Source of the DNA: Escherichia phage UPEC06
Sequence record: MW250786
Strand: one strand, 5' to 3'
Length of the DNA stretch: 64,000 bases
Shown here: positions 52,663 through 61,207 of the stretch, in pieces
Position numbering within the stretch: position 1 is the stretch's first letter
Layout of the letters: each line of letters begins with the position of its first letter
Position numbers and translations under genes: made by a program
The notes under the pieces: model-generated
The model's input: the letters and a program-made list of their open reading frames with translations, nothing else
What the model was told of the DNA's origin: nothing
The model's database searches: none

Positions 52663-55600
52663 GTGTCGTCTAATACTGATATATTGGCACTGGTAAGTAC
52701 CGAAGCAGATCTTGCTGTTGACCAGATCATTGAAGACTCTCGAAGACTTCATTTGATCGTCAACGGAACTGCAACAGAACAAGCTGTTACAGAAGATGGT
52801 AGCTTAATCCCTAGTGTACGTAAAGCGATAATTGATAACTTTTATTTTAAAACTCCACCGTTACCGTGGAGAAATGGAAGTTCAGTTATTGAATTCAATC
52901 AGTTATATGCATTTACCGATGTAAATGGCAACGTAACTTGGTGGTATGCCCCAGGTGCAACTACCAGCACTCCTGTCGTTATGCGAGACAGTCCAATCAA
53001 CGACGGTAAGTTCAGACCTTTCTTCGATAAAGGTAACATTCAAGAAACTTACGCCCCTATCCTTTCCCCTGTTTTTCGTGGAAACCCTACTGTACCTCTT
53101 GCTGCTGAAGGTGATAACTCATTTACTATCGCGAACACAGCTTGGGTTAGTCGAGAAATAGAAAAAGTACGTGGTGAGGTTCTTGAAGAGTCCAGAGGTG
53201 AATTCCAAAACATTATCGTTGCAGATGATGCGAGTCTGAAAGATCTCTATGTAAGTGGAGAAACCATCTTCACTGGCGACAGGATCGCTGCTCTTGATGC
53301 CGAGTTATCTTTAAAAAGATTACGAATGACAGGGACAGACGCAGAAATCGCATTTGAACAAAATGGCGTTCCACCCCAGGCAGGGTTAACAAAAAGAACA
53401 AATATCAAGCCTTTCCAAGTCACCACTGGTGTTGTTGATACCGATAATATAACTGCGAGAGAGATCAAGGTTGGAAATACCTCTGTTTCCACGAATTCTC
53501 TTGATGTTGATGGATTCATGCAAGGTGACTATCTTCACTTAGAGGGTAATGCCAATAACGCAGAAGACCGCCCACAACTGATCGTTGACGGTATTGCGGA
53601 AATAAATACTCTTCGTGTGACGAACACCATTGAAGGATTGAAGGCTGACGTTGAAGGTCTGGATATTAATCCTAACAGCATTGTGGTTGAAAGAACTGCG
53701 GAGATTAAGGGAAATACAACCCTTGGTGCAGATCTTGCCGTTACTGGCAATACGGTATTGAAAAATGTAAGAATCGAAGGTACTCTCACGGGTGCTGGAA
53801 TCGGTGTTGACGGGAAAGACATTTCCCCTCGTAATGTGAGTGCAACATCCGTTACTGTGGCAGAGAGCTTAAACATTACTGGACCTACTACGGCTTCCGG
53901 CGACGTTACGGTAAACAACCTGACGGTTAATGGAACACTCAGGGCCGATATCGACTTTGGAACTGCTGCTGTTGAATTCCAAGATCTGACTGTGACTAAC
54001 AAGGCAACGATCAAGGATCTTGAAATCACCGGAAACCTGACGGGAGTTACAGTCTCTGTTGATGGTGAAGCAATCTCCCCTTCTTCGGTGACAACCACAG
54101 GAAACATCGATGTTGGTAACAACATGCGTGTTCGTGGTGATATTACTCTGGACGGTGAGTTAAGTATCCCAAGCTTAGATACTGGGGACATAACGGCTGC
54201 TGCAATTGATGGTGCGAGCCTCTCAGTTAGTGGCGACATTACCGCAGGAACAACTTCGACCACAACGGTTAACAATCTTGTAGTCACAGGAACCACTACA
54301 GGAATCACTGTAACGGGCAATGTTGACGGACAAGACATTCTCCCATCCTCTGTAGAAACAACGTCTGTAGTGGCCTCTGAGAGAGTTACAACGGCAAACC
54401 TGACATCTACAGGTGACACTCAGGTAAATAACCTGACAATTACTGGAACTGTAACAGGATTCGATGTAGATCTTACCGGAAAGGACATTCAGGTTAATAC
54501 CTTGACGGTTACTCGCGGGTCAACTTTTGACGAGGTTACTGCTAATAACATAACCAACAATCAAAAGATTACCACAGTAGACCTTCAGGTTACTGGAAAC
54601 CTGACGAATGCAGACGGTGAACAATTCTTTGCAAACGTCACTGGTCAAGATATACTTCCTAATAGTGTGCAGTCTGCAACGTCTGTGAGAACTAAAACGC
54701 TACGTGTCGAAGAGACTAGCCTATTGGAAGGTGCTGTTACCTTAAATGATGGTTTGACTATCACTGGTGGTAATATCACATCTGTTCAAGGTCAAGCAAG
54801 CTTCAATGACGTACAGGTATTTGGATCTCTTCTGGACGCGAATGGTAATGCCTTAGGGACAGCGGAAAGCATAAACGGTAAAGATATCTCTCCTCGTAGC
54901 GTTACTGCTCAAGTTGAGATTCAGACTACTGCAATTGTTGCTACAGGTCAAGCTGAAGTTGGTTCTTTGATTTCAACTGGACAAGTAATGGCAGGAAGCT
55001 TAGAGGTTTCAGGGATAGGTAATATTGGTCAGGTTATTACCGACGACGTTCGTGCTGGAAAGGTAACTTCTGGTAACACCGTTATTACTCGTACTGTTGG
55101 ATCTAGCGATCCTGCTCTTGAAGTTCGTGGACCAGGTGAGATTCAGGGTGACCTTAATGTAACCGGAACTGTAACTGGTAACATTGACCTTAGCTCTCAA
55201 GACGTTAACGTTGCTTCAATGACCTCAACGGGAACAGTAAATGCCCTTTCCATTGAGTCTCGTACATCGGTAACTGGATTGTCTGGTACATTCGGTGAAG
55301 ATTATGAAGGTGCACCTACCTATGGTATAACTTCTCTTTCCGGCGCAAACATCAACAAGAACCTTCGAGTTGGTGGAAACCTGACTGTTGTTGGTAACAT
55401 CTCTGGCAATATCGACTTATCTGGAAAGGCGATCGAGCCTGCATCTTTGTCTACCACGACAGCTACGTTAACGACGGCGAACATAACAGACCTGACTGTA
55501 ACTGGTCAGTTTAATATCCCGACTGTACCGTTAAATGTTCAATCCCTTAGTTCTGAAAACGCTATTTCCGCAAGCAAGTTCAGCACCACACCAAAAGAAG

Positions 55601-55896
55601 TAAGCACCACCTCTTCTTCTTACATCCCAGACGGCTCAACGAGCATATATAACGTAAACGTTATAAATGATGTTGAAGTGAAAGCGCCGATTGGCCTGTT
55701 GAGTTCAGGAAAAGGTGAGTCGGTATTCCTCTTCTTTGAACAGGATGGTACTGGTGGACATGCGGTAACATTCGGATCGGAGTTTGTTGTGCATGGTACT
55801 GAAACCATCAAAACAGATGCAAACACTGTATCGGTAGTTAACATGGTTTATCGTGGCAAAGGCCCATTGATTGACGTATTCATCACTCGTCGCTAA
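52663..55896 (+). CDS. large tail fibre / tail spike protein
   Basis: 1077 aa, Thr/Val/Gly/Asn-rich with quasi-repeats (VTGN.TG...DISP.SV); downstream of baseplate genes. Confidence 0.55.
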   Translation: MSSNTDILALVSTEADLAVDQIIEDSRRLHLIVNGTATEQAVTEDGSLIPSVRKAIIDNFYFKTPPLPWRNGSSVIEFNQLYAFTDVNGNVTWWYAPGATTSTPVVMRDSPINDGKFRPFFDKGNIQETYAPILSPVFRGNPTVPLAAEGDNSFTIANTAWVSREIEKVRGEVLEESRGEFQNIIVADDASLKDLYVSGETIFTGDRIAALDAELSLKRLRMTGTDAEIAFEQNGVPPQAGLTKRTNIKPFQVTTGVVDTDNITAREIKVGNTSVSTNSLDVDGFMQGDYLHLEGNANNAEDRPQLIVDGIAEINTLRVTNTIEGLKADVEGLDINPNSIVVERTAEIKGNTTLGADLAVTGNTVLKNVRIEGTLTGAGIGVDGKDISPRNVSATSVTVAESLNITGPTTASGDVTVNNLTVNGTLRADIDFGTAAVEFQDLTVTNKATIKDLEITGNLTGVTVSVDGEAISPSSVTTTGNIDVGNNMRVRGDITLDGELSIPSLDTGDITAAAIDGASLSVSGDITAGTTSTTTVNNLVVTGTTTGITVTGNVDGQDILPSSVETTSVVASERVTTANLTSTGDTQVNNLTITGTVTGFDVDLTGKDIQVNTLTVTRGSTFDEVTANNITNNQKITTVDLQVTGNLTNADGEQFFANVTGQDILPNSVQSATSVRTKTLRVEETSLLEGAVTLNDGLTITGGNITSVQGQASFNDVQVFGSLLDANGNALGTAESINGKDISPRSVTAQVEIQTTAIVATGQAEVGSLISTGQVMAGSLEVSGIGNIGQVITDDVRAGKVTSGNTVITRTVGSSDPALEVRGPGEIQGDLNVTGTVTGNIDLSSQDVNVASMTSTGTVNALSIESRTSVTGLSGTFGEDYEGAPTYGITSLSGANINKNLRVGGNLTVVGNISGNIDLSGKAIEPASLSTTTATLTTANITDLTVTGQFNIPTVPLNVQSLSSENAISASKFSTTPKEVSTTSSSYIPDGSTSIYNVNVINDVEVKAPIGLLSSGKGESVFLFFEQDGTGGHAVTFGSEFVVHGTETIKTDANTVSVVNMVYRGKGPLIDVFITRR

Positions 55897-55935: not shown

Positions 55936-57171
55936 ATGATCCCTTTTCCAATTATTAATTTCGGTGGCAGTGTTCCACTACCTGTAGGCGTTACAATCAA
56001 GTATGCAGTAAGTACCAGCACCGGAAATATTTTTATTCTGCTTACCAATGGGCATCTATATGTAACTGGATCTAATTATCTAAACGGACTTGGTAAAACA
56101 GGGACCACAAATAATGCAACTTCGGGATGGTCACTTACTAACACAGGTGTTGAAGAAGTTTATGAGGCAGGAACAGAAAGTACACTGTACGGCGGTGTGT
56201 GGGTTAAGAAAAATAATAACCACTATGAATATATCTCTGCTGTAATCTTCCCCACTGTTGACACAACTCTCCAAAACAGTTGGAACGTCTTGCCTGAATC
56301 TGCATACATTGTCGATGGCGTAAATATCTTATCTTCCGCAATACAAATAGCCAGATCATACGCGATCCAGCCCGACGGCACTGTTTACAGACTTCTTCCA
56401 GAGGGACCTCAAGTAGCTTGGCCTGAGAAAACAAAATACCTGTATTTTGCAAACTATAATGCTATTCGTGTCGAGGTTGACGGAACTTTAAAATACCGAG
56501 GCGACAATGGTATAGATCAAGTGGCAGGCACTTCTGCCGGAACAACATTATCAACTTGGACAACCATCGGGGATTCTTCTGTAAGGTATATTAGGGCAAA
56601 ATGTGCTCGTGGTCAAGTGGCTAACACGAGTGGCGGTTCAGGTGCTCAATCTATTGTACTTGTTGTTGCACAGAGGGAAGATGGGTCATGGGATGCAGTT
56701 GGATCGGCAGCAAGAGCAGGGATAAACTCAACCAACGTCCTCGGTCCTAATTTAGCACCTATGACAAGCATTCCTGCTGGAGTTGAAGTTTACCTAACTA
56801 ACCAGATCAGTTATACAAACGCAAGTGTGAGCACTAGGGCAGCACTGCAAGTATTCATCTCTGACAGGGTTAATGGAGTTTATCAATCGACAGGTGGACA
56901 AGGTGGATACACATACTCCTTATTTAGAGATCTTCCTATAACCACCAACGCAACATCTTTTGAAAGCATACATCAAGATATTATAGATGATGGCGGCATT
57001 CTCCATATGACTGGCTCATTGGCTGACACTTTCAAAGTGATTGTTAGTGGTAATGGTAATCTTTACTGGACAGGGAGAGGTTACACAGGGGCTATGTACC
57101 CTGCTGACTTTACGGCCTCTAATACGATAGCTCAGAAGTTTAACTTGGAAGGTATAGTTATTCCAGCATAA
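55936..57171 (+). CDS. putative tail fibre / receptor-binding protein
   Basis: 411-aa Gly/Thr/Ser/Asn-rich protein, last gene of the rightward late block. Confidence 0.35.
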   Translation: MIPFPIINFGGSVPLPVGVTIKYAVSTSTGNIFILLTNGHLYVTGSNYLNGLGKTGTTNNATSGWSLTNTGVEEVYEAGTESTLYGGVWVKKNNNHYEYISAVIFPTVDTTLQNSWNVLPESAYIVDGVNILSSAIQIARSYAIQPDGTVYRLLPEGPQVAWPEKTKYLYFANYNAIRVEVDGTLKYRGDNGIDQVAGTSAGTTLSTWTTIGDSSVRYIRAKCARGQVANTSGGSGAQSIVLVVAQREDGSWDAVGSAARAGINSTNVLGPNLAPMTSIPAGVEVYLTNQISYTNASVSTRAALQVFISDRVNGVYQSTGGQGGYTYSLFRDLPITTNATSFESIHQDIIDDGGILHMTGSLADTFKVIVSGNGNLYWTGRGYTGAMYPADFTASNTIAQKFNLEGIVIPA

Positions 57172-57206
57172 AGAAAAGGCGCTCAAATGAGCGCCTTTAT
57201 TTTTAT
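57172..57206. terminator. bidirectional rho-independent terminator between convergent genes
   Basis: AAAGGCGCTC-AAAT-GAGCGCCTTT hairpin flanked by an A-run upstream and ATTTTTAT downstream. Confidence 0.65.
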
Positions 57207-57219
57207 CTAAATTTTACGA

Positions 57220-58395
57220 TCAAAACGGAATATCGTCGTCAAAATCCATATCATCTACAGACATATTCACATGGCCTTCGATATCAGGTGTAGGTGAATC
57301 TTCTGCTGACGGAGTTAACTGCGGTTCCGGCTCAGATTTCTTTTCTTCTTGCTTAGGGGTTGAAGCCCCGTTACGGATCTTATCTTCCAACTGACAGATA
57401 AATCGGAAATTCTCTTCTGTTTTAGCAATAAACGTTTCAATGTTATTACTTCCCCAACGGGCAGAAAGAATACCACACTGGCCTAAACGAGCACCAAAAG
57501 AATAATCATCCATAGATTTAAACTCTTCGCGAAGTTTTGCTTTAATGGAGTCCATCGCTGCAAGAACTTGCTCTACAACAATACCCTGATTTACGATCGT
57601 TTCATTCGGGAACATCGCATCTGTGATAGACAGTGCATTACCTAAACGAATAGGCAGATCGTCTTTACCTTTACCTGAACGTGATCCTGTTCCAGTACTT
57701 GCACCTTTTGGACCGTAAGCTTTAAAGCCTGTAACCGTACCATCATCTGAACGAACACCTGCAATACGACCACCTTCTGTAATCTGACCCGTCTGTTCAT
57801 CAGTGAGGTTTACAGTAACTTCTGTGCCGTCTTCCAGCTTAACAACTACCTTATTGCCTTCGATAGATGTGATATCACCATAAATCTTCTTAGCTGCACC
57901 ACCAGACGGCTTTTGCTGCTGTTGGGAACCATTTGATTGCTGCTGTTGCTGACGAGGCTCACGAGCACCGGATGCGTCAGTAATCTTGATACGTGCTTTC
58001 TTACCTTCCGTAGAAGAACCCTGACTACCATCTTGTTTGGTGTAGGTCTTGATAACAACAGGTAAGCGAATTTTCATACCTTCTTTAAGATCAGTGTAAC
58101 CACCTTCAGGATTTTTAATCTGGAACTGATTCTCATACTTCAGGTTTTTAACTTCACCTTCACCAAAAGAAATCCAAGCCTGGTCTTCACCTTCTTTCAG
58201 AAGAACTGCATAGCGGTGGGTATTGTTAATGCTTTTTTGCTGACCTGTATTCTTATCTTTAAAGGTGGTAACGCGTGGACTACCATCTTCATTAATACGT
58301 TTAATGAGGATACGTTCAATCGTACCTGCTGCAATGTTTACTGTGGTATCGGAAACAGCATCGTATACAGCATTGATAACTTTAACTTCAGACAT
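57220..58395 (-). CDS. ssb: single-stranded DNA-binding protein (SSB-like)
   Basis: C-terminus DDMDFDDDIPF matches the canonical SSB acidic tail; Gly/Gln-rich linker; 391 aa is longer than bacterial SSB. Confidence 0.6.
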   Translation of the reverse strand: MSEVKVINAVYDAVSDTTVNIAAGTIERILIKRINEDGSPRVTTFKDKNTGQQKSINNTHRYAVLLKEGEDQAWISFGEGEVKNLKYENQFQIKNPEGGYTDLKEGMKIRLPVVIKTYTKQDGSQGSSTEGKKARIKITDASGAREPRQQQQQSNGSQQQQKPSGGAAKKIYGDITSIEGNKVVVKLEDGTEVTVNLTDEQTGQITEGGRIAGVRSDDGTVTGFKAYGPKGASTGTGSRSGKGKDDLPIRLGNALSITDAMFPNETIVNQGIVVEQVLAAMDSIKAKLREEFKSMDDYSFGARLGQCGILSARWGSNNIETFIAKTEENFRFICQLEDKIRNGASTPKQEEKKSEPEPQLTPSAEDSPTPDIEGHVNMSVDDMDFDDDIPF

Positions 58396-58913: not shown

Positions 58914-59501
58914 TCAAGGACGTTTTGGTGGACTAACGACACCTTTTTTAGATAAAGGTAATTCGTCTGCATCTTTTCCACGAAGAGATTCTAGCCACTC
59001 ATCTAAAGACAGGGGTACTTTACCATCACCTTTGGACCACACAGACAAGCAATACAGATCGTATGCAGATGGACCTCGATCACCTTTGTCACCATTCGGC
59101 CCTTTTAAGCTCTCCAACCAATCCTTTTCGTTCAGTGGGATAGCACCTGGATCTTCTTGATGAAGAACTCTTAGGTATGTTTCATAAGCAGACTCTCCAC
59201 GAGGACCCATTTGACCCTTCTCACCTTGTGGCCCTTTTGCATAATCTGCGTACTTAGATTCCAGATATGCAGACTTCACACCTTCAGGGGCAACGGAAAC
59301 CTTATACAATGACCAAGCTAACAGAGCTATCCAACAAGCAAACAGTGCAAGCGGATAAGGGATCATTGAAGTAAAGAATGACAGAGCTAAAATTACAACC
59401 TTGTTCTTGTGATTACGACGGAAAGCGATGATCACAGGGGCTAACCAGATAGCAAAGATAACCCACGCAGATAAGATAAACAACCAACTAATGTATTCCA
59501 T
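58914..59501 (-). CDS. membrane protein with collagen-like GXY / SAY...WLESLKG motifs
   Basis: Three N-terminal hydrophobic segments, then two copies of GP.GE.G...SAY...WLESL(K/R)G, the motif family seen in the 29947 fibre protein. Confidence 0.45.
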   Translation of the reverse strand: MEYISWLFILSAWVIFAIWLAPVIIAFRRNHKNKVVILALSFFTSMIPYPLALFACWIALLAWSLYKVSVAPEGVKSAYLESKYADYAKGPQGEKGQMGPRGESAYETYLRVLHQEDPGAIPLNEKDWLESLKGPNGDKGDRGPSAYDLYCLSVWSKGDGKVPLSLDEWLESLRGKDADELPLSKKGVVSPPKRP

Positions 59502-59689
59502 TAAGCCTCCTCGGTATCGTCTTTAAAGTAATCTAACATCCAACTTTCTACAGGGGTTGCATAGTAACCCGTTCGACCTTTCTTTTGAAACTCCATGATA
59601 ATTTCATTTGCAATACCTTTTGTGATTGCGATCCCGATCAGTGCACCACCAGGTCCCATTACTGCATGTGAACTAAGATCATTACTCAT
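59501..59689 (-). CDS. hypothetical protein
   Basis: ORF track; overlapping start/stop. Confidence 0.3.
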   Translation of the reverse strand: MSNDLSSHAVMGPGGALIGIAITKGIANEIIMEFQKKGRTGYYATPVESWMLDYFKDDTEEA

Positions 59690-59981
59690 TTTTAACCCCC
59701 TTCATTTTATCTCTTAAACTTTGAGCATCCCACGTATAACCTGAGGAGATACCTTTTTCACGTTCACTATCTTTGAACTTGCAAATTACAGATTTTGCTT
59801 CACCATCAACAACAACCGCATAACTGTTGTAATAATTGTGTTGCTTCTTGCAAAATTCGTGTAACTCCTTAACCTCTATTGGCATCAGAGAAGGTAGATT
59901 TTTGTATCGCTTTGTCTGATCATCTTCACCATCTCCGCAACCAACAAGAAGAAGTATACATAAAATGATTAACCTTTTCAA
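59682..59981 (-). CDS. putative lipoprotein
   Basis: Signal peptide with lipobox LVGC; TTG start with GGGGGT SD-like sequence. Confidence 0.4.
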   Translation of the reverse strand: MKRLIILCILLLVGCGDGEDDQTKRYKNLPSLMPIEVKELHEFCKKQHNYYNSYAVVVDGEAKSVICKFKDSEREKGISSGYTWDAQSLRDKMKGVKNE

Positions 59982-60129
59982 TAGCTACCCCCAAAATATT
60001 TTGTAATCTCTACTGCAAATATTGTCCCAAGTATAAACCATGTGGCACTTAGTACGTTGAAGGGTAAAAACCTTGATCCTGTAAGAGAAACCATAATGAA
60101 AAACGTTACAAAAATCTCTGGAGAAATCA

Positions 60130-60531
60130 TCATTGTTTGATAGTCCCCTTGGCGATCATCTCGTCAAGTTCATCTTCCGCACGACACATAATCTGATAGA
60201 TAGTCTCTGGATTGTTTAAGAATTCTGTGTACTTTTTGATACGACAAACTAAACGTGCACGAACTTTACGCTCACGGGCCACATGATTAAAGTAATGTCC
60301 CTTTTGTCTGTAGATCCAAGCATAATATACAGTTTTTGCTCTATTGCGATCACAACCTAAACGTTCAGCCAACAGAGTGTAAGGGTCATTATTAGTGGGA
60401 CCAAACAAAAATATTTCTGCAAAACTTTCCTTCATGATACGAGATTCTTCATCCGTGATTCGCGGACATTCTTCAGAACCGTAGCGTGGGGTTTTAGTGG
60501 CATTTGGCTTCTTAGGGTATACTTTACGCAT
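60130..60531 (-). CDS. hypothetical protein (basic; possibly nucleic-acid binding)
   Basis: Basic composition with several Cys (CPRI, CDRN, CRIK, CRAE). Confidence 0.3.
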   Translation of the reverse strand: MRKVYPKKPNATKTPRYGSEECPRITDEESRIMKESFAEIFLFGPTNNDPYTLLAERLGCDRNRAKTVYYAWIYRQKGHYFNHVARERKVRARLVCRIKKYTEFLNNPETIYQIMCRAEDELDEMIAKGTIKQ

Positions 60532-60598: not shown

Positions 60599-61207
60599 TC
60601 AATCACAACTACTTGAAGAACTACTGCTGCTACTGTCAGAAGAATAACTATCATATGATGATGAGCTATCATACGAACTTGATCGACTTGAAGAACAGTA
60701 AGAACTTGAACTACTTGTACGATCTTCACTGGAGGACATTACAGCAGCATACGTTGCCACACCACCTAAAGCTGCCACCTGAGGATCAACCTGGCTAGTT
60801 CCATATCCATTTGGAGAGTCGCTCATCTTACGTGGTGCTGCCCGACGTGCCTGATCAATATACTGTCGCTTTGCCTTCGGCGGTAATTTCTTACCTTGAG
60901 CATAGGACGGTAATTCAACGCCCTTCAGTTGTTCATTCAAAGGTTTCGGCGGTGTAGCCTGTGATTTTGGTCGTTCAACAGAGATATCAACAACCTTCAT
61001 CGTCTTATCCTTGATGTTTACCCCAACCAGTACTTCATTTTCTTTTAATGGCTTTTCAAGATCGCGTGTTTCAACTGGACCAAATTTAACGCTTGCAGTT
61101 TCCTGACGTTGTTCGGCCTGCTTTGCAATATATTTGTCGATCGCCGCAGTTTCTACTTCCAGCGGAATAAACAGTGATTTTACCCAAGCAACAAACTTCT
61201 TGATCAT
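60599..61207 (-). CDS. hypothetical protein with serine-rich low-complexity C-terminus
   Basis: C-terminal SSSEDRTSSSSSYCSSSRSSSYDSSSSYDSYSSDSSSSSSSSSCD. Confidence 0.4.
   Translation of the reverse strand: MIKKFVAWVKSLFIPLEVETAAIDKYIAKQAEQRQETASVKFGPVETRDLEKPLKENEVLVGVNIKDKTMKVVDISVERPKSQATPPKPLNEQLKGVELPSYAQGKKLPPKAKRQYIDQARRAAPRKMSDSPNGYGTSQVDPQVAALGGVATYAAVMSSSEDRTSSSSSYCSSSRSSSYDSSSSYDSYSSDSSSSSSSSSCD

What the first reader, a model, noticed from the sequence alone, without database searches (positions are those of the whole stretch)
59682..59981. Small lipoprotein next to the membrane collagen-motif protein: candidate superinfection-exclusion factor
A 99-aa protein with a signal peptide and lipobox (LVGC) lies on the minus strand next to the membrane collagen-motif protein, about 2.5 kb from the tail-fibre genes. 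Phage lipoproteins near receptor-binding genes, such as T5 Llp, are known to mask the receptor after infection.
Basis: inference. Interest (0 to 1): 0.5.

Follow-up and report, generated by a model that had tools for sequence, protein, structure and literature searches.

The report
Orphan phage lipoprotein beside Imm-like gene
A real, conserved but dispensable small lipoprotein of a flagellum-associated group of E. coli phages; it is not a T5 Llp-type receptor mask, and it may help block DNA entry by later-arriving phages because it sits with a relative of the phage T4 immunity protein.

Summary
The ORF at 59682-59981 (-) is real. It encodes 99 aa from a TTG start coupled to the upstream gene, with a signal peptide and an LVGC lipobox. 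The lipobox Gly-Cys and two further Cys are invariant in the 35 aligned homologues; four more distant relatives keep them too. The family is tiny and confined to Septuagintavirus, Certrevirus and their relatives. Its confident AlphaFold model (alpha-beta-beta-beta-alpha) matches no solved structure.

It is not the o-spanin: a canonical Rz-like pair lies at 22121-22836. It is not homologous to T5 Llp or T4 Spackle. It is not a virion protein, and it is dispensable, because phage A7_1 carries a 224-bp deletion of it yet plaques normally.

The gene lies in the minus-strand replication-side operon, cut off from the tail-fibre genes by a bidirectional terminator. It is translationally coupled to a 51-aa two-helix membrane protein. 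It usually directly precedes a membrane protein whose N-terminal domain resembles T4 Imm (hhalign 92%). About 44% of family members carry Asp at +2, the inner-membrane retention signal.

Best reading (about 0.4): a periplasmic accessory lipoprotein of an Imm-type, post-adsorption superinfection-immunity module. Llp-style receptor masking is unlikely. Function remains untested.

The parts
59682..59981 (-). Lipoprotein gene, 99 aa, TTG start; member of phrog_15849 (function unknown). The mature part (84 aa, about 9.7 kDa) has an acidic tether (residues 16-33) and a compact alpha-beta-beta-beta-alpha domain (residues 34-98) with two invariant Cys (C44, C67).
59937..59981 (-). Codons 1-15: signal peptide plus lipobox LVGC. 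The Cys15 codon is 59937-59939. The +2 residue is Gly and +3 is Asp.
   Evidence: Gly-Cys is invariant in the 35 aligned homologues and present in all 39 sequences tabulated.
59978..60133 (-). 51-aa predicted two-helix membrane protein (phrog_22594). Its stop overlaps the lipoprotein start (TTGA). It is the most constant partner of the lipoprotein gene across relatives.
   Evidence: The two helices are read by inspection of the sequence.
60130..60531 (-). 133-aa conserved protein (phrog_12333, function unknown). It is the first gene of the overlapping five-gene run (ATGA overlap with the 51-aa gene).
59501..59689 (-). 62-aa ORF lying between the lipoprotein and the Imm-like gene in this genus. 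It overlaps both neighbours and has a homologue in metagenomic locus L008.
58914..59501 (-). 195-aa membrane protein. The N-terminal helices (AlphaFold H2-28, H34-46, H48-70) resemble T4 Imm / Pfam Imm_superinfect. The C-terminal part has collagen G-X-Y repeats, two tail-fibre-like SAY...WLESLKG motifs and a conserved DADE(I/L)PLSKxGV end.
57175..57198 (.). Bidirectional intrinsic-terminator-like hairpin (10-bp stem, 6 G-C pairs, T-runs on both strands). It separates the plus-strand tail-fibre module from the minus-strand operon that contains the lipoprotein gene.

Best explanation
The gene encodes a genuine signal-peptidase-II lipoprotein, made by a Septuagintavirus-like virulent myovirus of the Vequintavirinae. 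It is exported, lipid-anchored at Cys15 and faces the periplasm. A roughly 18-residue acidic tether is followed by a small, probably disulfide-stabilised alpha/beta domain of a fold with no known relative. It is a non-structural accessory protein, not needed for plaque formation. It is expressed from the replication-side (minus-strand) operon as part of a translationally coupled run: a 133-aa protein, a 51-aa two-helix membrane protein, the lipoprotein, a 62-aa protein, and an Imm-like collagen-stalk membrane protein. The most likely function (inferred, not shown) is to contribute to envelope-level superinfection immunity of the infected cell at a step after adsorption, in the manner of T4 Imm and Sp. 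In this model the Imm-like inner-membrane protein would neutralise the incoming tape-measure or DNA-entry machinery. The membrane-tethered lipoprotein would act on the periplasmic side, for example on the incoming tail tip or on a host envelope component needed for penetration. It would not plug an outer-membrane receptor as T5 Llp does. Shown here: the gene is real and conserved; the lipobox and Cys pattern; the fold prediction; the gene coupling; dispensability; absence from the reported virion proteome of the related phage W70. Inferred: lipidation, disulfide, membrane location, expression timing, partner proteins and the exclusion function.
For: The ORF, its start context and its lipobox are. 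The lipobox Gly-Cys and C44/C67 are invariant across the 35 aligned homologues and kept in four distant relatives. Purifying selection acts on the folded domain. The AlphaFold model has pLDDT 79.8, above 90 for most of residues 30-99. Start/stop overlaps link the five genes, and the same TM-protein/lipoprotein overlap occurs in Certrevirus and in metagenomic relatives. In Certrevirus, SSBI34, L007, L009 and L015 the lipoprotein gene is directly followed, with overlap, by the Imm-like collagen protein. Evidence that the neighbour is Imm-like: Pfam PF14373 at 20-25 bits in several members and in 17 of 42 members at E<=1e-3; precomputed PF14373 hits and a UniRef name 'Superinfection immunity protein' for the CR8 and PBES02 homologues; phrog_1039 'immunity to superinfection' at 2e-5; hhalign against T4 Imm at 91.7% probability, E 7.9e-7, 58 columns. 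T4 Imm is itself a bona fide PF14373 member at 58 bits. T4 Imm blocks genome translocation by binding the tape-measure protein (bioRxiv 10.64898/2026.03.06.709160). T4 imm also lies in the replication cluster downstream of the DNA polymerase gene, as this cluster does in phage A5-4. Accessory status: phage A7_1 has a 224-bp internal deletion that leaves only MKRLIILCILLLVGCGENKGG*, yet it forms clear plaques and kills MG1655 like its relatives (PMC11370258). The protein is not among the 28 virion proteins reported for the related Septuagintavirus W70. Asp at +2 in 17 of 39 family members fits anchoring beside inner-membrane partners (the +2 rule is established knowledge, Yamaguchi et al. 1988).
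Against: No experiment bears on function. The lipoprotein has no sequence or fold relative of known function. Linkage to the Imm-like gene is not obligatory. L008, L013 and L014 carry the lipoprotein without it. A7_1 keeps the Imm-like gene without the lipoprotein. In this window a 62-aa ORF separates the two genes. The whole block of small genes, for example DUF7325, is found in the same 28 phage records, so co-distribution reflects the clade rather than the module. The Imm similarity of the neighbour is below Pfam's gathering score in the window protein (20 against 27.9 bits). The topology of its collagen domain, periplasmic or cytoplasmic, could not be settled from the AlphaFold secondary structure. 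The promoter scan was no better than chance (20 found against 17.4 expected), so early timing is inferred only from operon position. The +2 residue varies (D, N, G, K, F, L, R), so no single membrane location is conserved.
Confidence: 0.4

Rival explanations
1. An Llp/Cor-type factor. [quoted passage not shown]
For: It is a small non-spanin lipoprotein of a virulent phage and is dispensable in the laboratory, as Llp is. The window protein itself has Gly, not Asp, at +2, so by the simple +2 rule it would go to the outer membrane. It lies within 2.5 kb of the tail-fibre genes.
Against: Only the signal peptide aligns with T5 Llp. No PDB sequence or fold match to Llp or any other protein was found. 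T5 llp abuts oad with divergent promoters; here four genes and a terminator intervene and the orientation is convergent. Seventeen of 39 homologues carry Asp+2, many followed by D or E, which predicts inner-membrane retention and is incompatible with a conserved outer-membrane site of action. Certrevirus relatives use flagella, and other Vequintavirinae use glycans, as receptors rather than a plug-domain outer-membrane channel.
Confidence: 0.1
2. A lysis-related accessory. Together with the small two-helix membrane protein it would modulate lysis timing or envelope disruption, for example as an antiholin- or lysis-inhibition-like sensor, a second spanin-like element, or a regulator of a peptidoglycan hydrolase.
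For: A small two-helix membrane protein resembles class II holins or antiholins in outline, and it is translationally coupled to the lipoprotein. In distant relatives (L013, L014) the upstream partner is a bitopic membrane protein with a periplasmic domain followed by an overlapping lipoprotein gene, which formally resembles a spanin layout. Lysis genes are dispersed in this subfamily (PMC7344957; PMC12942863).
Against: A canonical Rz-like i-spanin/o-spanin pair already exists at 22121..22836 next to the terminase gene (the same arrangement is described for CB7 and rV5). The protein has no PHROG or Pfam lysis match. The mature domain is a compact folded alpha/beta unit, not the short proline-rich chain typical of Rz1 (the Rz1 description is from general knowledge). 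The 51-aa partner has no periplasmic domain. The gene sits in the replication-side operon, not beside an endolysin. The A7_1 deletion mutant lyses cultures with normal kinetics.
Confidence: 0.12
3. A host-envelope takeover or counter-defence factor unrelated to superinfection. The periplasmic domain would bind and inhibit or redirect a host envelope component, such as a peptidoglycan enzyme, the Tol-Pal or Lpp system, the flagellar basal body or stator, or an envelope-located defence. This would benefit the primary infection in natural hosts but not on E. coli K-12.
For: It lies among about 25 small genes of unknown function between the DNA polymerase and SSB-like genes, the usual home of host-takeover genes. 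It is dispensable on K-12. It has an orphan fold. It occurs without the Imm-like gene in some relatives. The family is restricted to the clade whose characterised members are flagellum-dependent.
Against: No positive evidence exists for any particular target. PADLOC and NCBIfam gave nothing. The usual tight coupling with an Imm-like protein points to entry blocking.
Confidence: 0.25
4. Not a functional gene: a chance ORF, or a decaying remnant whose lipobox is fortuitous.
For: It has a non-ATG (TTG) start. One relative (A7_1) has lost it. Some database entries annotate only a 67-aa version starting at Met33.
Against: The gene keeps its length, position and coupling across genera at 32-47% identity, with invariant lipobox and Cys residues. 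Homologues use ATG, GTG or TTG starts at the same position. pN is lower than pS. The fold prediction is confident.
Confidence: 0.02

Closest known systems
T5 Llp (and T1/phi80 Cor): lytic-conversion lipoproteins that inactivate FhuA
   Same: A small lipoprotein (77 aa in T5, 99 aa here) encoded by a virulent phage, with a signal peptide and lipobox, non-structural and dispensable. A protective or exclusion role is plausible.
   Different: There is no homology beyond the signal peptide and no shared fold. T5 llp abuts the receptor-binding gene oad divergently, whereas this gene is in a convergent replication-side operon 2.5 kb away, beyond a terminator. Llp acts from the outer membrane's inner leaflet on a plug-domain channel (abstract listed). 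Nearly half of this family carries the inner-membrane retention residue Asp+2, and related phages use flagella.
T4 Imm plus Sp (Spackle): superinfection immunity by blocking DNA entry after adsorption
   Same: The usual downstream neighbour has an Imm_superinfect-like membrane domain. The arrangement pairs a small exported periplasmic protein with an inner-membrane protein, as Sp and Imm do functionally. The genes lie in the replication gene cluster, as T4 imm and sp do.
   Different: The lipoprotein is not homologous to Sp; only the signal peptide aligns. The model here is alpha/beta, and Sp did not appear in the PDB fold searches. Sp is described as a soluble periplasmic protein in the T4 annotation, whereas this protein is lipid-anchored. 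The Imm-like neighbour carries a collagen-like, tail-fibre-like C-terminal extension that T4 Imm (83 aa) lacks. T4 imm and sp are not adjacent to each other.
Rz1-type o-spanins
   Same: A small phage lipoprotein of about 100 aa whose gene overlaps the stop codon of an upstream membrane-protein gene.
   Different: The true Rz-like pair lies at 22121..22836 (phrog_4297 and phrog_1267). The upstream partner here is a 51-aa two-helix protein without a periplasmic coiled coil. The mature domain is a compact fold. There is no spanin HMM match.
phrog_15849 (uncharacterised phage protein family)
   Same: The window protein is a full-length member (E 1.9e-22, residues 1-93 against profile positions 1-89 of 94).
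   Different: Nothing differs, but the family has no assigned function. UniRef's name 'Lipoprotein' for the A5-4 homologue gives no function.

Membership tests
Bacterial-type (signal peptidase II) lipoprotein | N-terminal signal peptide with a basic n-region and hydrophobic h-region, ending in the lipobox [LVI][ASTVI][GAS]C | tested here: met
   MKRLIILCILLLVGC: K2 and R3, hydrophobic core, L-V-G-C with Cys15.
Bacterial-type (signal peptidase II) lipoprotein | Lipobox Cys conserved in homologues | tested here: met
   Gly-Cys is invariant in the 35 aligned homologues and present in all 39 sequences tabulated.
Bacterial-type (signal peptidase II) lipoprotein | Diacylglyceryl modification and globomycin-sensitive processing | not testable with these tools
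   Requires palmitate labelling, a globomycin assay or mass spectrometry.
T5 Llp / Cor receptor-blocking lipoproteins | Sequence or fold homology of the mature domain to Llp | tested here: not met
T5 Llp / Cor receptor-blocking lipoproteins | Gene placed directly beside the receptor-binding protein gene | tested here: not met
   T5 llp starts 80 bp from oad and is divergent. Here the distance is 2.5 kb with four genes between, the orientation is convergent, and a terminator lies at 57175-57198.
T5 Llp / Cor receptor-blocking lipoproteins | Sorting to the outer membrane (no Lol-avoidance signal) | tested here: inconclusive
   The window protein has Gly+2 and Asp+3. Across the family +2 is D in 17, N in 11, G in 3, K in 3, F in 3, L in 1 and R in 1 of 39. 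Actual sorting was not measured.
T5 Llp / Cor receptor-blocking lipoproteins | The phage uses an outer-membrane protein channel that the lipoprotein inactivates; adsorption is blocked | not testable with these tools
   The literature reports flagella for Certrevirus and glycans for other Vequintavirinae. The receptor of this phage is unknown.
T4 Spackle (Sp) | Homology of the mature domain to Sp | tested here: not met
   hhalign aligns only the signal peptide. No fold match in the PDB searches.
o-spanin (Rz1-like) | Match to spanin families and pairing with an i-spanin (N-terminal transmembrane domain plus periplasmic coiled coil) | tested here: not met
   No spanin PHROG hit. The upstream partner is a 51-aa two-helix protein. 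The genuine pair is at 22121..22836.
Imm_superinfect (PF14373; T4 Imm) - applies to the neighbour 58914..59501, not to the lipoprotein | Pfam match at or above the gathering score (27.9 bits) | tested here: inconclusive
   The window protein scores 20.0 bits, homologues up to 25.0 bits. Seventeen of 42 members reach E<=1e-3. Some members carry precomputed PF14373 hits. hhalign against T4 Imm gives 91.7% probability and E 7.9e-7. T4 Imm itself scores 58.2 bits.
Imm_superinfect (PF14373; T4 Imm) - applies to the neighbour 58914..59501, not to the lipoprotein | Blocks genome entry of a superinfecting phage by binding its tape-measure protein | not testable with these tools
   The mechanism was shown for T4 only (bioRxiv 10.64898/2026.03.06.709160).

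The most novel reading that the evidence does not exclude
The coupled genes (51-aa membrane protein, lipoprotein, Imm-like collagen-stalk protein) encode a previously undescribed envelope-spanning superinfection-immunity device of the flagellum-dependent branch of the Vequintavirinae. In this reading an Imm-type inner-membrane domain, carrying a trimeric collagen or tail-fibre-like stalk, and a new-fold lipoprotein together intercept the incoming tail tip or tape-measure protein in the periplasm. Alternatively they act on the flagellar basal body or stator and so shut off the flagellar route of entry.
Probability: 0.15. Interest if true: 0.65.

Novelty: new variant of a known kind. Interest (0 to 1): 0.4.

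Why it matters
Known superinfection-exclusion lipoproteins of virulent coliphages (Llp, Cor) act on outer-membrane channels. The post-adsorption Imm system has been worked out only for T4. If this orphan-fold lipoprotein cooperates with an Imm-like, collagen-stalked membrane protein, it would extend Imm-type immunity to another myovirus subfamily. It would also add a lipoprotein component and a new small periplasmic fold to that system. A natural knockout (A7_1 against A5-4, W70 and A73, all growing on MG1655) makes this directly testable. For phage-cocktail design, such factors decide whether related phages interfere with one another. If the function is something else, the practical result still stands: the gene should be annotated as 'lipoprotein, non-spanin, function unknown', starting at the TTG codon, and not as an Llp homologue.

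Tried and rejected
Approaches that gave nothing:
- The exhaustive profile search of 1.84 billion representative proteins found only 13 hits, all phage-like small lipoproteins.
- The promoter scan was not above chance, so it gives no statement on timing.
I therefore could not check the C44-C67 distance or the helix packing of the neighbour. The disulfide and the neighbour's topology remain inferences.
- No supplementary files are held for the CB7 paper, so its three 'putative lipoproteins' could not be matched to this family.

Ideas rejected:
- o-spanin.
- Llp homologue.
- Sp homologue.
- Virion or tail-fibre component.
- Module-specific phyletic co-occurrence as evidence of function. The neighbouring DUF7325 gene has the same 28-record distribution, so the pattern is clade-wide.

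Full report
**Observation.** The window carries a 99-codon ORF at 59682..59981 on the minus strand. Its product begins MKRLIILCILLLVGC|GDGEDD: two basic residues, a hydrophobic core and the lipobox L-V-G-C. The start codon is TTG. It sits in a TTGA overlap with the stop of the upstream 51-aa ORF, and a GGGGG run lies 6 nt upstream. A scan of every ORF of at least 40 aa in the window for a signal peptide plus lipobox returned only two credible lipoproteins: this one and a 100-aa protein at 22534..22836. A 62-aa ORF (59501..59689) separates the gene from the collagen-motif membrane protein (58914..59501). The tail-fibre genes 2.5 kb away are on the other strand and convergent, beyond four genes and a bidirectional terminator-like hairpin at 57175-57198.

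**What the window is.** The region is 93-95% identical to E. coli phages vB_EcoM-LTH01, A5-4, A73, W70 and A7_1. These belong to the genus Septuagintavirus of the Vequintavirinae (PMC11370258). In A5-4 the gene lies in one long co-directional cluster. That cluster runs from the primase/helicase gene through the DNA polymerase gene and about 25 small ORFs to a 391-aa protein. The 391-aa protein ends in the SSB-like acidic tail DDMDFDDDIPF. The plus-strand ORFs 52663..55896 and 55936..57171 belong to phrog_4549 and phrog_15692. These are the families of W70_107 (tail fibre) and W70_106, both found in the W70 virion by mass spectrometry. Neither the lipoprotein nor the collagen-motif protein is among the 28 virion proteins reported.

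**The gene is real and conserved.**
- Translated search of phage genomes found the protein in 27 records: Septuagintavirus, Certrevirus (CR3, CR8, CR9, PBES02, POP15/17/18, P7_Pc, KaOmega and others) and Salmonella phage SSBI34, at 32-43% identity outside the genus.
- A profile search of 5.8 billion proteins gave 35 cluster representatives.
- An exhaustive profile search of 1.84 billion representatives gave only 13.
- The family is therefore small and phage-specific. It corresponds to phrog_15849, function unknown.
- In the alignment the lipobox Gly-Cys, C44, Q47, V65, C67, D85 and K92 are invariant. Four more distant members keep the lipobox and both Cys.
- Homologues start with ATG, GTG or TTG at the same position.
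- Within the genus pN/pS is about 0.25, and residues 36-99 show no amino-acid change.
- Some database entries start the protein at Met33 (a 67-aa BFVD entry) and so miss the signal peptide.

**Structure.** AlphaFold2 with the 35-sequence alignment gave mean pLDDT 79.8, with 94-97 for residues 31-70. The model has a low-confidence signal peptide and tether, then helix 34-45, strands 50-58, 61-70 and 81-85, and helix 86-98. No relative was found in any library:
- Foldseek on PDB: nothing at E<=1e-3.
- PDB sequence profile: nothing meaningful.
- BFVD: family members only.

The two invariant Cys in an exported protein suggest a disulfide.

**What it is not.**
- *Not the o-spanin.* ORFs 22121..22537 (N-terminal transmembrane domain, phrog_4297) and 22534..22836 (lipoprotein, phrog_1267) are both 'Rz-like spanin'. 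They overlap stop-to-start and sit just upstream of the large terminase gene. This is the arrangement described for Certrevirus CB7, rV5 and PVP-SE1 (PMC7344957).
- *Not an Llp homologue.* hhalign against T5 Llp aligns only the signal peptide. T5 llp abuts oad from a divergent promoter.
- *Not a Spackle homologue.* Again only the signal peptide aligns.
- PADLOC and NCBIfam gave nothing.

**Gene context.** Five genes overlap or abut: 60531-60130, 60133-59978, 59981-59682, 59689-59501 and 59501-58914.
- The overlap between the small membrane-protein gene and the lipoprotein gene recurs in POP15 (GTGA), L007, L008, L009 and, by translated search, in 27 phage records.
- In distant relatives (L013, L014) the upstream partner is a different 77-79-aa bitopic membrane protein, again overlapping or abutting.
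- In L015 a transmembrane segment is fused to the lipoprotein's N-terminus.
- In Certrevirus, SSBI34, L007, L009 and L015 the lipoprotein gene is immediately followed, with overlap, by the homologue of the window's 195-aa protein.

**The neighbour is Imm-like.** The N-terminal membrane domain of the 195-aa protein matches Pfam Imm_superinfect (PF14373) below threshold.
- Scores are 20 bits in the window protein and 24-25 bits in CR9 and SSBI34, against a cut-off of 27.9.
- Seventeen of 42 family members reach E<=1e-3.
- Several members carry precomputed PF14373 hits, and UniRef names the CR8 and PBES02 proteins 'Superinfection immunity protein'.
- It also hits phrog_1039, 'immunity to superinfection', at 2e-5.
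- T4 Imm itself scores 58 bits on PF14373. hhalign of the family against T4 Imm gives 91.7% probability and E 7.9e-7 over 58 columns, with the P..IA..R motif aligned.
- A 2026 preprint reports that T4 Imm binds the tape-measure protein and so blocks genome translocation. It also reports that the N-terminus is periplasmic and that R33 and W50 matter for function.
- The C-terminal half carries collagen G-X-Y repeats and a conserved DADE(I/L)PLSKxGV end. In this genus it also has two tail-fibre-like SAY...WLESLKG motifs that the shorter Certrevirus homologues lack.
- AlphaFold gives confident helices 2-28, 34-46 and 48-70 and a low-confidence remainder. Whether the collagen part is periplasmic could not be decided.

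**Limits of the linkage.**
- L008, L013 and L014 carry the lipoprotein without an Imm-like gene.
- A7_1 keeps the Imm-like gene without the lipoprotein.
- The neighbouring DUF7325 gene occurs in the same 28 phage records, so co-distribution reflects the clade rather than the module.

**Dispensability.** In phage A7_1 a 224-bp deletion removes codons 18 onwards and leaves MKRLIILCILLLVGCGENKGG*. A7_1 was isolated on MG1655, forms clear plaques and gives kill curves like its relatives. The lipoprotein is therefore an accessory gene under laboratory conditions.

**Membrane sorting.** Among 39 family members the residue after the lipid-modified Cys is Asp in 17 (often followed by D or E), Asn in 11, Gly in 3 (including the window, CGD), Lys in 3, Phe in 3, Leu in 1 and Arg in 1. 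By the established +2 rule for Enterobacterales (Yamaguchi et al. 1988), Asp retains a lipoprotein in the inner membrane. No outer-membrane location is conserved. This argues against a mechanism that, like Llp's, requires the outer membrane's inner leaflet (Llp location from the abstract listed). It fits action beside inner-membrane partners.

**Receptor.** Certrevirus phages phiTE and CR3 depend on flagella. Septuagintavirus shares its tail-fibre proteins with Certrevirus. Other Vequintavirinae use glycans. None of these is a plug-domain channel that a periplasmic lipoprotein could inactivate from inside.

**Conclusion.** High confidence: this is a genuine, conserved, non-structural and dispensable periplasmic lipoprotein with an orphan fold, encoded in the replication-side operon and translationally coupled to small inner-membrane proteins. 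Moderate confidence (about 0.4): it contributes to post-adsorption superinfection immunity together with the Imm-like neighbour, analogous to T4 Imm and Sp but not homologous to Sp. The rivals are:
- an unrelated host-envelope takeover or counter-defence role (0.25);
- a lysis-related accessory (0.12);
- Llp-style receptor masking (0.1);
- a non-functional ORF (0.02).

The class of function is plausible, but the Llp analogy and the argument from tail-fibre proximity are not supported.

Noticed in passing
window 22121-22836 (+): Canonical Rz-like spanin pair. The i-spanin is 138 aa (phrog_4297). Its stop overlaps the start of a 100-aa o-spanin lipoprotein (phrog_1267, MMKKIIAGIILCFSLVGC...). 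The pair lies directly upstream of the large terminase gene (22937-24424), far from any endolysin.
   Followed up: yes
window 20318-22060 (+): Cluster of five tRNA genes (Met-CAT, Tyr-GTA, Pro-TGG, Gly-TCC, Gln-TTG) just upstream of the spanin and terminase genes. The mechanical ORF 21853-22143 is merely a read-through of these tRNA genes.
   Followed up: partly
locus L010 (Escherichia phage A7_1, OP795442) 1657-1720, corresponding to window about 59710-59935: A natural 224-bp internal deletion of the lipoprotein gene leaves only the signal peptide plus 7 residues. This is a ready-made knockout for functional tests.
   Followed up: yes
window 58914-59501 (-): The Imm-like membrane protein is 195 aa here but 105-127 aa in Certrevirus. 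The extra length is two copies of a tail-fibre-like motif (G.SAYE/D.Y...(D/E)WLESLKG/RG) inserted between collagen G-X-Y runs. The C-terminal DADE(I/L)PLSKxGV is nearly invariant. The protein is not in the W70 virion proteome.
   Followed up: partly
window 57220-58395 (-): A 391-aa protein (phrog_4477, function unknown) ends in DDMDFDDDIPF, the acidic-tail signature of bacterial and phage SSB proteins. It is probably the phage single-stranded-DNA-binding protein and marks this operon as replication-related.
   Followed up: no
window 57175-57198: A perfect 10-bp-stem hairpin with T-runs on both strands lies between the convergent tail-fibre module and the minus-strand operon. It is a likely bidirectional terminator.
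   Followed up: partly
window 60599-61207 (-): A 202-aa protein (phrog_13005) has an extreme Ser-rich C-terminal tail (SSSEDRTSSSSSYCSSSRSSSYDSSSSYDSYSSDSSSSSSSSSCD). Its function is unknown.
   Followed up: no
loci L008 4315-4729, L013 3762-4001, L015 4001-4366: Context variants in metagenomic relatives. In L008 the Imm-like gene is replaced by a 75-aa Cys-rich, zinc-ribbon-like protein plus a homologue of the window's 62-aa ORF. In L013 and L014 the lipoprotein is paired with a different 77-79-aa bitopic membrane protein. L015 encodes a 121-aa version with an extra N-terminal transmembrane segment fused ahead of the lipoprotein signal peptide.
   Followed up: partly
window 59682-59981 (-), annotation issue: A BFVD/UniProt entry (A0A8T8L763, 67 aa, 100% identical) starts at Met33 and so lacks the signal peptide. 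The TTG start causes the gene to be mis-annotated in at least one deposited relative.
   Followed up: partly
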